Positions 1-3,000 of a DNA stretch of 64,000 nucleotides are shown here, in pieces. The stretch is from Escherichia coli (lineage in GTDB: Bacteria > Pseudomonadota > Gammaproteobacteria > Enterobacterales > Enterobacteriaceae), in assembly GCF_017348835.2 (NCBI RefSeq), contig NZ_CP071375.1; one strand, given 5' to 3'. The position numbers are program-made. The number at the start of each line of letters is the position of its first letter. The stretch's first letter is position 1.

Positions 1-3000
1 TTTAATCAGCGTATTTTTCTTATCCGTCACTTCAATCACCACACCAGTCACCTGTGGGACAACAGGAATAGAAATAACCGCTTTTTGCGCTTTAAAGGTA
101 TACGGATGGTTATAGTTCATTAACAGAATTAGACCGCTGACAATAAATATTCCACCCAGGGCCGCTGTGGGAATGGTCCATTTATTTACGGGAATTTTGA
201 AGATCTTAAACATTGCCCATGCAAAAGCCACATAGGTCAAAATAATCAGTAAATCCATAAGTATTACTCGGCAGAAGAGGATTTGATGTCGGCGAGCTGT
301 TTCTCCAGCCCGGCAATGCGCTGTTGCAGTTGCATAACGGAGGAATCATGGCTTTGCATTCCCCATCCCCGCTCCGGGCGGTAAAGCGTGGCCCAAATCC
401 ACAAAAACGGCCAGATAACATGTAACGTAAAAAGACTCACCCAACCAGCAACATGAATGGCGTCGGCATGAGGATGATTACGTTTTTTAGCAATCAGGTA
501 GGGAATATCATGTAAAATAATAATCCCATAAAATATCACCAGAAATACAAAAATAAGCACTCCCAGTGCAAAATAGTCCAGGAACATATTTCCCTCAGAG
601 AATATAAAAAAGAACAATTAACGCATATTATGAAATGCCATGATGCAGTGCAATTCCCTTATTTATATAACGACATATTGTTTTTTATATACTTCCTGAA
701 GTGTGCTGACTGGCTTTTTAACAGGTCGAGGCTTATCATATTGAAATAATGGAACTATTGGCCAAATTTATGATTAAAAACCGTAAAACATCCACAATGC
801 AGATTAAGCGTATTAAACCTTCAATAATCTACCGTTTATTGCTGATTGTCCTCGGAATACCAATGGTGATTTACGGTCTGGTTTGCCCGCTCACCATCGA
901 AACGCGAGATTAAACTCCTGGCAAAACACGCCCCAGAAACGCACTTTTGTTGGCGTAGTCTGGGTTATTGCACACGTAGGTTTAAAACGTAAATTGTAAC
1001 AACGTGCGCTTTGTTTATGCCGGATGCGGCGTGTACGCCTTATCCGACCTACGGTCAGGTTCCCGTAGGCATGATAAGACGAGTAAGCGTCGCATCAGGC
1101 AATGAATACCCAATGCGACCAGCTTCTTATATCAGAACAGCCCCAACGGTTTATCTGAGTAGCTCACTAGCAGGCACTTGGTTTGCTGGTAATGCTCCAG
1201 CATCATCTTGTGGGTTTCGCGACCGATGCCTGATTGTTTGTAGCCGCCAAACGCCGCATGTGCCGGGTAAGCGTGATAACAGTTGGTCCACACGCGCCCA
1301 GCCTGTATGCCGCGCCCCATCTTATAGGCCAGATTACCGTTGCGGCTCCAGACGCCCGCGCCCAGGCCATATTGCGTATCGTTCGCCAGCTCCAGCGCTT
1401 CTTCCATCGTTTTGAAGGTGGTCACCGCCAGCACCGGGCCAAAAATCTCCTCCTGGAACACGCGCATATTGTTCTGACCAAACAGAATCGTCGGTTCGAG
1501 GTAGTAGCCGTCTTTCAGTTCACCTTCCAGCAGCTTGCGCCGCCCGCCAGTGAGCACGTCTGCGCCCTCTTTTTTACCGATATCAATGTAGTTGAGGATG
1601 GTTTCCAGTTGCCCGTGAGAAACCTGCGCCCCCATTTGCGTCACGCTGTCGAGTGGGTTACCGCTGCGAATGCTTTCGACACGGCGGATGGCGCGTTCCA
1701 TAAAGCGTTCGTAGATTGACTCCTGCACTAAGGCACGACTCGGACAGGTGCAAACTTCGCCCTGGTTAAAGGCAAACAGTGCAAAGCCTTCCAGCGCTTT
1801 ATCGAAAAAGGCATCTTCTTCATCCATCACATCAGCAAAGAAGATATTTGGCGACTTACCGCCCAGCTCCAGCGTCACCGGAATAATGTTTTGCGTTGCG
1901 TATTGCATAATTTGTTGGCCCACTTCCGTTGAGCCGGTAAACGCCACTTTGGCGATGCGTTTCGAGGTCGCCAGATATTCGCCAATTTCCCCACCAGCGC
2001 CATTGACCACGTTCACCACGCCCGGCGGCAGTAAATCACCGACGATTTCCATTAGCAGCAGTACAGAAAGCGGGGTAAGACGTGCGGGTTTCAGCACCAC
2101 ACAGTTGCCCGCCGCCAGCGCGGGAGCCATTTTCCAGCTCGCCATCAGCAGCGGGAAGTTCCACGGGATAATCTGCCCCACCACGCCTAACGGTTCATGG
2201 AAATGATAGGCCACGGTTTCGCTATCAACTTCACTGATCCCACCTTCCTGCGCCCGAATACACGAGGCGAAATAGCGGAAATGGTCAATCGCCAGCGGTA
2301 CATCCGCAGCACTGGTTTCGCGAATGGGTTTGCCGTTATCCCAGGTTTCAGCTGTCGCTAACAGCTCGAGGTTTTGTTCCATTCGATCGGCAATCTTAAA
2401 CAGAATCGCCGCGCGATCCTGCACCGAGGTGTGCGCCCATTTATCTTTCACTTTGTGCGCAGCATCCAGCGCCAGATCGATGTCTCGTTTGCCCGAAGAC
2501 GCCACTTCGCACAGCAGCTGCCCGGTCACCGGCGTCAGGTTCTGGTAATACTCACCATCGGCAGGGGCTACCCATTCGCCGCCAATAAAGTTGTCGTAGC
2601 GGGCTTTTAACTTGATGGGGAAACCATACTCACCGGGCTTAATCTGTGCTGAAGGGGGATTGTTGGTCATGATCGTCTCCTTGCGGTGTGAGGTATAACA
2701 AGGGTAGACGTGGCTGGCGAAATCTTCGCCAGTCAGTGACAGCTTTTCGACGGCAATCACGAATTTACGGGCAAGGGTTACAACGGATAATGCGCGACGT
2801 ACACTGCTTGCTGGTCATTAATTTTCTTCTCTTGCGCAAATCCTTCTTTAACAATCGTCCGTAAATCAGTTCGCGCTGTATTATCAGAGACGCCCAGACT
2901 CGCGCTGGTTTCAGAAACTGTGTACTCTTTCCCCGGATTGGCGAGCATCACATTCAGGAGCGTTACCTGGCGAGGATTCAGGCGTTTAAGCACACCAGAG

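What the first reader, a model, noticed from the sequence alone, without database searches (positions are those of the whole stretch)
770..913. Unannotated small membrane-protein ORF between yiaW and aldB
A 47-codon ORF encodes a basic N-terminus followed by one hydrophobic helix (MIKNRKTSTMQIKRIKPSIIYRLLLIVLGIPMVIYGLVCPLTIETRD), the pattern of many recently discovered small membrane proteins. It is too short for the track and has no obvious Shine-Dalgarno, so it is speculative.
Basis: seen in the sequence. Interest (0 to 1): 0.3.

Follow-up and report, generated by a model that had tools for sequence, protein, structure and literature searches.

The report
Deletion remnant of a membrane-protein gene
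The 47-codon ORF is real, but it is what remains of a 104-codon two-helix membrane-protein gene after an in-frame 171-bp deletion in E. coli; it now changes like unconstrained DNA, so it is most likely a decaying gene remnant and not a newly found small protein.

Summary
The ORF exists exactly as described (window 770-913, +, ATG...TAA, 47 aa) between yiaW and aldB. It is absent from the curated MG1655 record, but NCBI's PGAP pipeline already calls it "hypothetical protein" in most RefSeq E. coli genomes. At the same position E. whittamii, Escherichia sp. E1V33, Citrobacter amalonaticus and 28 of 5,426 complete E. coli genomes carry an intact 104-aa gene. Pseudocitrobacter has it about 3.5 kb away. 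The window ORF equals residues 1-39 plus 97-104 of that protein. A 171-bp in-frame deletion between two imperfect 15-bp direct repeats removed the end of helix 1, the loop and all of helix 2, including 6 of the 7 most conserved family positions. Intact orthologs are under purifying selection (dN/dS 0.09-0.3). The remnant is not: window vs intact E. coli allele gives 9.5 non-synonymous to 2.5 synonymous differences. Across 57 alleles Pn:Ps is 16:8, against 6:18 for neighbouring yiaW (p=0.008). Other strains carry IS insertions, a frameshift, stop loss or lack the locus. The parent family (~290 clusters, ~100 aa) has no Pfam or NCBIfam model. Translation data could not be checked. Verdict: ordinary pseudogene-like remnant, low interest.

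The parts
770..913 (+). 47-codon ORF plus stop. It is the remnant (in-frame deletion allele) of a 104-codon two-transmembrane-helix protein gene.
   Evidence: ORF; alignment to intact orthologs: 315 bp vs 144 bp.
770..871 (+). Codons 1-34. They are homologous to the N-terminus (basic KRIKPS motif) and the first part of helix 1 of the intact protein.
   Evidence: helix 1 = residues 17-44 in the AlphaFold model, pLDDT 86.
872..886 (+). Deletion junction: the single surviving copy (TACGGTCTGGTTTGC, codons 35-39, YGLVC) of a 15-bp imperfect direct repeat. The intact gene has it twice, 171 bp apart (codons 35-39 and 92-96).
   Evidence: (blastn pieces overlap on window 872-886).
887..913 (+). Codons 40-47 (PLTIETRD) plus TAA. 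They are homologous to the last 8 codons (97-104) and the stop of the intact gene.
749..769 (+). In-frame upstream extension (ATG 749, TTG 758) used by some annotations. It is not conserved as coding outside Escherichia (GTG in K-12, absent in Citrobacter and Pseudocitrobacter).
684..712 (-). Context, not part of the remnant: the divergent yiaWV promoter (-35 CAGTCA at 712-707, 17-nt spacer, -10 TATAAA at 689-684). It matches the published K-12 promoter CAGACA-17-TATAAA, and the paper flags an H-NS site in this spacer.
   Evidence: (PMC3946193) and direct reading. The conserved block across Escherichia and C. amalonaticus is seen.
914..950 (+). 3' flank. Intact alleles have a hairpin after the stop (GCCCGGCAATACACGCCGGGC). 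In the window it is eroded by substitutions and a ~10-nt loss (ACTCCTGGCAAAACACGCCCCAG).
   Evidence: 3' flanks printed side by side.

Best explanation
The ORF is a pseudogene-like remnant of a conserved 104-codon gene for a two-transmembrane-helix inner-membrane protein of unknown function. In the Escherichia lineage two imperfect 15-bp direct repeats arose inside the gene (codons 35-39 YGLVC and 92-96 YSLVR). Slippage or illegitimate recombination between them removed 171 bp (57 codons). Because 171 is a multiple of three, the N-terminal 38-39 codons were fused in frame to the last 8-9 codons and the original stop, leaving an open 47-codon frame that looks like a single-pass small membrane protein. 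Shown: the homology, the synteny, the junction, the loss of helix 2 and of most conserved positions, and the near-neutral substitution pattern. Inferred: the mechanism of the deletion, and that the product, if any is made, has no selected function. The upstream DNA is the same in intact and deleted alleles, so low-level transcription or translation is not excluded.
For: (1) Intact 103-104-aa homologs were found upstream of yiaW in E. whittamii, Escherichia sp. E1V33 and C. amalonaticus, and between sgbE and yiaT in Pseudocitrobacter and Citrobacter sp. R56. (2) 28 of 5,426 complete E. coli genomes keep the intact 315-bp gene (PGAP: WP_001064341.1 and WP_001064340.1), while about 3,375 match it only partially. 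Of 52 metagenome contigs, 49 are deleted, 1 is intact, 1 is frameshifted and 1 runs off the contig end. (3) In the nucleotide alignment the remnant equals the intact gene minus 171 bp bounded by the 15-bp repeats (11/15 identical in E. coli, 13/15 in E. whittamii). Deleting that segment in silico from the intact allele gives a 47-aa protein of the remnant type. The repeats are absent in Citrobacter and Pseudocitrobacter. (4) An exhaustive profile search found 293 clusters, nearly all 95-125 aa and aligned over profile positions ~8-101. Of the 7 invariant or near-invariant family positions, 6 (G40, G46, G59, G88, L89, W90) lie in the deleted part. (5) The AlphaFold2 model of the intact protein (pLDDT 86) has helices 17-44 and 59-95 with a beta-hairpin loop. 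The deletion removes residues 40-96. (6) Selection: intact orthologs have dN/dS 0.09-0.31. Window remnant vs the intact E. coli allele gives Sd 2.5 and Nd 9.5. Window vs K-12 gives Sd 2.5 and Nd 10.5, while yiaW in the same pair gives Sd 5 and Nd 0. Fisher's test of remnant vs intact gives p=0.005. Polymorphism in 57 remnant alleles is Pn 16, Ps 8 (per-site ratio 0.68), against yiaW in the same contigs at Pn 6, Ps 18 (0.10), p=0.008. (7) Independent lesions exist elsewhere: IS-end fusions at several positions, a frameshift (P0038; L098), stop loss (P0013, P0028), a different 5' deletion in Escherichia sp. MOD1-EC7003, and the whole yiaUVW-ORF block missing in some strains. (8) There is no SD, no + strand promoter match and an eroded 3' hairpin.
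Against: The frame is still open in nearly all carriers, and codons 11-47 vary little among protein clusters. With only ~7% synonymous divergence this is expected even without constraint. The polymorphism ratio of 0.68 is below 1, so weak residual constraint cannot be excluded. Counts are small. The K-12-type allele differs from the intact allele by only 2 synonymous and 2 non-synonymous changes, which is uninformative. The deleted allele is near fixation among carriers, which drift or hitch-hiking can explain but which a selective advantage could also explain. No expression data could be examined.
Confidence: 0.82

Rival explanations
1. A functional single-pass small membrane protein: the in-frame truncation created, or left behind, a 47-aa peptide that E. 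coli expresses and uses. It might act as a modulator of a larger membrane protein, as many Storz-type small proteins do.
For: The ORF is open in thousands of genomes and the deleted allele is near fixation among locus carriers. A basic N-terminus plus a ~21-residue hydrophobic stretch is retained. The upstream region is identical to that of intact alleles, so whatever expression the parent gene had may persist. The polymorphism ratio of 0.68 is not exactly 1.
Against: Non-synonymous changes accumulate at the neutral rate in the window lineage. Pn:Ps is significantly higher than in the adjacent functional gene. IS insertions, a frameshift, stop loss and whole-locus absence are all tolerated. 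There is no SD and no predicted promoter. The spacer is flagged as H-NS-bound. The curated MG1655 annotation has no gene there.
Confidence: 0.11
2. A chance ORF in an AT-rich intergenic or promoter region with no protein-coding history.
For: The region is AT-rich and lacks an SD. It overlaps the conserved divergent yiaWV promoter region upstream.
Against: There is protein-level homology to 103-104-aa genes in other genera at 51-57% amino-acid identity with saturated synonymous sites (dS > 1). Remnant-type proteins also hit the family profile at about 1e-9 to 1e-10.
Confidence: 0.01
3. A small hydrophobic toxin of a type I toxin-antitoxin or defence module. HicAB sits next to it in some strains.
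For: It is short and hydrophobic. hicBA lies immediately downstream of the intact gene in some E. coli. The Pseudocitrobacter homolog gives a weak PADLOC '2TM effector' hit (E=4e-4, 18 bits).
Against: The E. coli forms give no PADLOC hit. Rfam finds no antisense or overlapping sRNA family, only REP-derived sub-threshold hits downstream. hicBA is a complete type II pair on its own and is absent from most carriers, including the window. The parent family is a widespread ~100-aa housekeeping-looking membrane protein.
Confidence: 0.02
4. The conservation reflects a non-coding role of the DNA (yiaWV regulation, H-NS nucleation) and not any coding function.
For: Genomic SELEX places an RpoD site and an H-NS site in this spacer. 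The block at ~660-712 is conserved into Citrobacter.
Against: That block lies upstream of the ORF. Within the ORF the similarity to other genera is at the amino-acid level, not the DNA level. This reading complements the remnant explanation and does not compete with it.
Confidence: 0.04

Closest known systems
Unnamed family of ~100-aa two-transmembrane-helix bacterial proteins (the parent family; intact E. coli members WP_001064341.1 and WP_001064340.1; called 'hypothetical protein' or 'inner membrane protein' in C. amalonaticus, C. farmeri, Franconibacter and Pseudocitrobacter)
   Same: The N-terminal 38-39 residues (including the KRIKPS-IYRLLLIGLG motif) and the C-terminal RPLTIETRD align to it. 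The locus is syntenic in Escherichia and C. amalonaticus.
   Different: The window ORF lacks residues 40-96: the end of helix 1, the W-N loop, all of helix 2 and the G-L-W motif. It also lacks the purifying selection seen on intact members.
Validated E. coli small membrane proteins of 50 aa or fewer (Hemm/Storz-type, e.g. those found by tagging and initiation-complex ribosome profiling; own knowledge and preprint 10.1101/511675)
   Same: Length under 50 aa, one predicted hydrophobic helix, intergenic location, missed by the curated annotation.
   Different: Those genes are conserved as short ORFs and have direct evidence of translation. This one is short only because of a recent deletion, its orthologs are 104 aa, it evolves near-neutrally, and no translation evidence was found or could be checked.
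Bacterial pseudogenes formed by deletion between short direct repeats (replication slippage or illegitimate recombination; general knowledge)
   Same: One surviving copy of a short imperfect direct repeat sits at the junction. There is relaxed selection, further independent lesions in the population, and presence/absence polymorphism of the intact allele.
   Different: The deletion is in frame and retains the original start and stop. The remnant therefore stays an intact-looking ORF that gene callers annotate as a protein.
DUF3566 (PF12089), the label UniRef gives to one Franconibacter member
   Same: Both are small two-helix transmembrane domains of unknown function (own knowledge for DUF3566; label seen).
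   Different: Pfam's HMMs gave no DUF3566 hit for that protein or for any of 55 family members, even at E<=10.

Membership tests
Parent ~100-aa two-TM family (profile A4/A5) | Significant sequence similarity to the family profile | tested here: met
   Remnant-type E. coli proteins (P0002, P0026, P0044, P0045) hit the A4 profile at 2e-10 to 1e-9 over profile positions 1-40. tblastn of the ORF finds the intact orthologs.
Parent ~100-aa two-TM family (profile A4/A5) | End-to-end architecture: two TM helices joined by a W-N loop, with a G-L-W motif near the C-terminus | tested here: not met
   Residues 40-96 are missing. 6 of the 7 invariant or near-invariant positions and all of helix 2 are absent.
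Parent ~100-aa two-TM family (profile A4/A5) | Purifying selection on the coding sequence | tested here: not met
   Intact genes have omega 0.09-0.31. The remnant gives Nd 9.5 and Sd 2.5 against the intact allele, and Pn:Ps 16:8 against yiaW's 6:18, p=0.008.
Bona fide small (<=50 aa) membrane-protein genes of E. coli | Short ORF with a predicted transmembrane helix | tested here: met
   47 codons. The hydrophobic stretch LLLIVLGIPMVIYGLVCPLTI corresponds to helix 1 of the modelled parent.
Bona fide small (<=50 aa) membrane-protein genes of E. coli | Conservation of the short ORF as such in related species | tested here: not met
   Orthologs in E. whittamii, Escherichia sp. E1V33, C. amalonaticus and Pseudocitrobacter are 103-104 aa.
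Bona fide small (<=50 aa) membrane-protein genes of E. coli | Direct evidence of translation (ribosome profiling of initiation complexes, epitope tagging) | not testable with these tools
   The held copy of the Stringer 2021 table stops at 1.13 Mb. Supplements of Weaver 2019 and Meydan 2019 are not held. Nothing was found in the other supplements searched.
Bona fide small (<=50 aa) membrane-protein genes of E. coli | Recognisable translation and transcription signals | tested here: inconclusive
   There is no SD within 15 nt of ATG 770 and no + strand sigma-70 match at the scan threshold. The intact Escherichia alleles share the same upstream DNA and are still under purifying selection, so the absence of consensus signals is not decisive.
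Pseudogene or gene remnant formed by deletion | Intact homolog at the syntenic position in close relatives and in some conspecific strains | tested here: met
Pseudogene or gene remnant formed by deletion | Defined lesion relative to the intact gene | tested here: met
   171-bp deletion between 15-bp direct repeats.
Pseudogene or gene remnant formed by deletion | Relaxed constraint and further independent lesions in the population | tested here: met
DUF3566 (PF12089) | Match to the Pfam HMM at or above its gathering score | tested here: not met
   No hit at E<=10 for the labelled Franconibacter protein or for other members.
Type I toxin-antitoxin small hydrophobic toxins | Cognate antisense or overlapping sRNA, or membership of a known toxin family | tested here: not met
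   Rfam shows nothing on the ORF. No Pfam, NCBIfam or PADLOC family was found for the E. coli forms. This is a weak test, because undescribed antisense RNAs would be missed.

The most novel reading that the evidence does not exclude
The in-frame truncation gave rise to a new, functional single-pass microprotein ('small-protein birth by internal deletion'). Under this reading it rose to near fixation among E. coli that carry the locus because it is advantageous, for example as a dominant-negative or modulatory fragment of a two-helix membrane protein. The excess of amino-acid changes in the window lineage would then reflect adaptive change and not decay.
Probability: 0.08. Interest if true: 0.45.

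Novelty: new member of a known kind. Interest (0 to 1): 0.17.

Why it matters
Mainly as a caution and a clean-up. A 47-aa 'hypothetical protein' that PGAP propagates through thousands of E. coli genomes (e.g. WP_001066080.1), and that looks like a textbook small-membrane-protein candidate, is a deletion remnant of a larger gene. Small-ORF discovery screens should therefore check for longer orthologs before calling a new microprotein. Two smaller points follow. E. coli still segregates the intact allele at about 0.5% of complete genomes, which gives a natural intact/deleted pair for testing what the parent protein does. The parent is a widespread ~100-aa two-helix membrane-protein family (~290 clusters at 50% identity, from enterics to Planctomycetes and Elusimicrobiota) that has no Pfam or NCBIfam model and no known function.

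Tried and rejected
- **Family scans of the short ORF:** Pfam and NCBIfam gave only sub-threshold, compositional hits.
- **Family scans of the intact protein and 55 relatives:** Pfam, NCBIfam, PADLOC and PHROGs showed no family. The DUF3566 label was not reproduced.
- **PDB sequence search with the family profile:** nothing.
- **Rfam on 500-1250:** only REP-derived sub-threshold naRNA4 hits at 1013-1142.
- **Literature on translation:** the held Stringer 2021 table is truncated at 1.13 Mb. Supplements of the Weaver and Meydan preprints are not held and the published versions are absent. There is no mention in the Weaver preprint text. Nothing was found in the truncated supplements of the Enterobacteriaceae smORF survey, the PIRT-seq paper or the Mg-starvation paper.
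- **One or two deletion events:** I tried to decide this from the junction (Cys39 TGC vs Arg39 CGC alleles). Only one repeat position is informative and the haplotypes are mosaic, so it is unresolved.
- **Correction:** an early note gave the deletion as 156 bp (52 codons). That was the distance between the repeats. The correct figure is 171 bp (57 codons).

Full report
**Observation.** ATG is at 770, TAA at 911-913, on the + strand, giving 47 codons that translate to MIKNRKTSTMQIKRIKPSIIYRLLLIVLGIPMVIYGLVCPLTIETRD. It lies between yiaW (264-587, -) and aldB (1132-2670, -). In-frame alternative starts exist at ATG 749 and TTG 758. There is no Shine-Dalgarno-like sequence before ATG 770. A consensus scan found no sigma-70-like promoter on the + strand.

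**First homology pass.** The 54-aa version found 38 protein clusters, all named ones from E. coli, with lengths from 47 to 95 aa and no Pfam or NCBIfam family. Their alignment showed a nearly invariant C-terminal 36 residues and a variable N-terminus. Several 'partial' proteins had N-termini that read through from an insertion-sequence end.

**The decisive step.** I used YiaW as a syntenic anchor to fetch its neighbourhood from one genome per species. A tblastn of the ORF against those loci found homologs upstream of yiaW in E. whittamii, Escherichia sp. E1V33 and Citrobacter amalonaticus. It also found homologs about 3.5 kb away in Pseudocitrobacter vendiensis and Citrobacter sp. R56. Extending each hit from stop to stop showed that these homologs are 103-104 aa.

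- **What the E. coli ORF corresponds to.** It aligns to the two ends of the longer protein, residues 1-39 and 97-104.
- **Intact alleles within E. coli.** A search of 5,426 complete E. coli genomes with the E. whittamii gene found 3,403 matching genomes, but only 28 match over at least 80% of its length. In those 28, PGAP annotates a 104-aa hypothetical protein (WP_001064341.1, WP_001064340.1).
- **Independent sample.** Of 52 metagenome contigs that contain an invariant 22-mer of the ORF, 49 carry the 47-codon form, one carries the intact gene, one carries a frameshifted remnant and one runs off its contig.

**The lesion.** The intact CDS is 315 bp and the remnant is 144 bp, a difference of 171 bp or 57 codons.

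- **The repeats.** The intact gene contains two imperfect 15-bp direct repeats exactly 171 bp apart: TACGGTCTGGTTTGC (codons 35-39, YGLVC) and TACAGCCTGGTCCGC (codons 92-96, YSLVR). They are 11/15 identical in E. coli and 13/15 in E. whittamii.
- **The junction.** The remnant has one copy, at window 872-886. Removing the segment in silico from the intact E. coli allele yields a 47-aa protein of the remnant type. This is the signature of a slippage or illegitimate-recombination deletion (mechanism inferred). Because 171 is a multiple of three, the frame stayed open.
- **Lineage specificity.** The repeats are specific to Escherichia. The corresponding segments in Citrobacter and Pseudocitrobacter are dissimilar.
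- **Number of events.** Deleted alleles come with Cys39 (TGC: window, O157) or Arg39 (CGC: K-12). This could reflect two crossover points or one event plus a point change. The haplotypes are mosaic and I could not decide.

**What was lost.** An exhaustive profile search with six intact proteins found 293 clusters (50%-identity representatives) at E<=1e-3 and 88 at E<=1e-10. Nearly all are 95-125 aa and aligned over profile positions ~8-101. In a 55-member alignment the invariant or near-invariant positions are G27, G40, G46, G59, G88, L89 and W90, and six of those seven fall within residues 40-96. AlphaFold2 with that alignment gives a confident model (pLDDT 86, pTM 0.67): helix 17-44, a short beta-hairpin at 51-56, and helix 59-95. 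The deletion therefore removes the end of helix 1, the loop and all of helix 2.

**Selection.**

| Comparison | Synonymous | Non-synonymous | Ratio |
|---|---|---|---|
| Intact E. coli vs E. whittamii (pairwise) | 19 | 6 | dN/dS 0.09 |
| P. vendiensis vs Citrobacter sp. R56 (pairwise) | 30 | 13 | dN/dS 0.10 |
| Window remnant vs intact E. coli, 47 shared codons | 2.5 | 9.5 | dN/dS 1.26 |
| Window remnant vs K-12 remnant | 2.5 | 10.5 | dN/dS 1.41 |
| yiaW, window vs K-12 (control) | 5 | 0 | pN 0 |
| Remnant polymorphism, 57 alleles (15 haplotypes) | 8 | 16 | per-site 0.68 |
| yiaW polymorphism, same contigs | 18 | 6 | per-site 0.10 |

- **Intact orthologs.** Nei-Gojobori estimates across all intact pairs give dN/dS 0.09-0.31, so the parent is a real gene under purifying selection.
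- **Window remnant.** Its synonymous divergence from K-12 matches that of yiaW (pS 0.07 in both), but its non-synonymous divergence is as high as the synonymous (pN 0.10).
- **Tests on the pairwise counts.** The 9:3 split matches the neutral expectation of about 3:1. Its probability under omega=0.1 is 2e-4, or 7e-3 if the clustered changes at codons 2-5 count as one event. Fisher's test against the intact-gene counts gives p=0.005.
- **Test on the polymorphism counts.** Fisher's test of remnant against yiaW gives p=0.008.
- **Caveats.** The counts are small. The sampling 22-mer forces codons 20-27 to be invariant. The common K-12-type allele is too close to the intact allele to be informative on its own.

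**Further decay in the population.**

- Contig L093 begins with an IS terminal inverted repeat (I recognise it from memory as the IS1 end) abutting codon ~8 of the ORF. Protein clusters show such fusions at at least four different positions.
- Other clusters show a frameshift (P0038), stop-codon loss (P0013, P0028) and small in-frame indels.
- Escherichia sp. MOD1-EC7003 has an independent deletion that removes the 5' half of the gene.
- At least one sampled E. coli genome (strain SW070910) lacks the whole yiaU-yiaV-yiaW-ORF block. About 30% of the complete genomes lack an 80% match to the window's spacer.
- The hairpin that follows the stop codon in intact alleles is eroded in deleted alleles.

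**Context.** Genomic SELEX (PMC3946193) places an RpoD-holoenzyme site in the yiaW-aldB spacer, with predicted promoter CAGACA-17-TATAAA assigned to yiaWV, and flags H-NS there. In the window this promoter reads CAGTCA-17-TATAAA at 712-684 on the - strand. That explains the conserved AT-rich block upstream of the ORF. Rfam finds nothing on the ORF. In Pseudocitrobacter the intact gene sits between sgbE and yiaT, on the other side of the yiaTUVW block. The gene therefore behaves as an independent unit and not as part of the yiaWV operon.

**Expression.** I could not test translation. The held copy of the Stringer 2021 initiation-site table is truncated at 1.13 Mb. Supplements of the Weaver and Meydan studies are not held. 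Other supplements gave nothing. The upstream DNA of deleted and intact alleles is essentially the same, so some expression of the remnant is possible. The evolutionary evidence argues only that any product is not under selection.

**Verdict.** The best explanation is an in-frame deletion remnant of a conserved two-helix membrane-protein gene, evolving near-neutrally (confidence about 0.8). The main rival is a still-functional or newly functional single-pass microprotein (about 0.1). This is a new instance of a well-known kind of feature, so interest is low. Its value is as a caution for small-ORF screens and as a pointer to an uncurated ~100-aa membrane-protein family.

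Noticed in passing
window 684-712 (- strand); conserved block ~660-712: This is the divergent yiaWV promoter. 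It reads CAGTCA-17-TATAAA in the window, against the published K-12 CAGACA-17-TATAAA. The spacer is flagged as an H-NS site in genomic SELEX. The AT-rich block TATTTATATAACGACATATTGTTTTTTATATAC is conserved into Citrobacter amalonaticus and might also hold a binding site for the neighbouring LysR regulator YiaU (speculation).
   Followed up: partly
window 1013-1142: A cluster of REP/BIME-type palindromic repeats lies between the ORF and the aldB stop. It gives three sub-threshold Rfam naRNA4 (RF02564) hits on both strands, and it accounts for the multiple 'places per genome' in the E. coli search.
   Followed up: partly
L085 (NZ_CP043414) 2812-3424; L087 (NZ_CM129864) 2171-2783: A hicBA type II toxin-antitoxin pair is inserted between the intact gene and aldB in some E. 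coli. The hicB coding region overlaps the intact gene's 3' end by 4 bp on the opposite strand. The same hicBA pair sits next to aldB in strains that lack yiaUVW altogether.
   Followed up: no
L087 (NZ_CM129864.1, strain SW070910): In this strain the whole yiaU-yiaV-yiaW-ORF block is absent. An MFS transporter gene and a glycoside hydrolase family 127 gene adjoin hicBA-aldB instead. About 30% of complete E. coli genomes lack an 80% match to the window's spacer.
   Followed up: partly
L093 1-75; protein clusters P0027, P0030, P0032, P0033, P0037: An insertion-sequence end (terminal inverted repeat ...ACACTAAATCAGTAAGTTGGCAGCATCACC, recognised from memory as IS1) is joined to the 5' part of the ORF at at least four different positions in different strains. 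The AT-rich start of the remnant looks like an IS insertion hot spot.
   Followed up: partly
L009 7458-7769 (Pseudocitrobacter vendiensis); L037 ~7336-7644 (Citrobacter sp. R56): The intact homolog lies between sgbE and yiaT, on the opposite side of the yiaT-yiaU-yiaV-yiaW block compared with Escherichia and C. amalonaticus. This suggests that the yiaTUVW block was inserted or moved relative to this gene.
   Followed up: partly
L006 ~3744-3900 (Escherichia sp. MOD1-EC7003): An independent, different deletion removes the 5' half of the gene together with part of the spacer (window-equivalent ~693 onward, including the yiaWV -35 region). Only the ...AAGLLAGLSVSAFLTVVIGTIACPGLWLYSLVRPLTIETRD end is left.
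   Followed up: partly
window 773-784 (codons 2-5): The window allele differs from other E. coli alleles by a tight cluster of changes (AATAACCCCAGT/AATAACTCCAGT -> ATTAAAAACCGT; NN(P/S)S -> IKNR). This looks like a single multi-nucleotide or templated event and not four independent substitutions. Only about 9 complete genomes share the window's spacer at >=99% identity.
   Followed up: partly
[not shown]
   Followed up: yes
L042, L060, L067, L070-L072 (paralogous loci): A second DUF3302 gene about 75% identical to YiaW (probably the yibI paralog, from memory) occurs elsewhere in Escherichia genomes and came up in the anchor search. The E. coli species representative's own yiaW locus was not among the 80 loci kept.
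   Followed up: no
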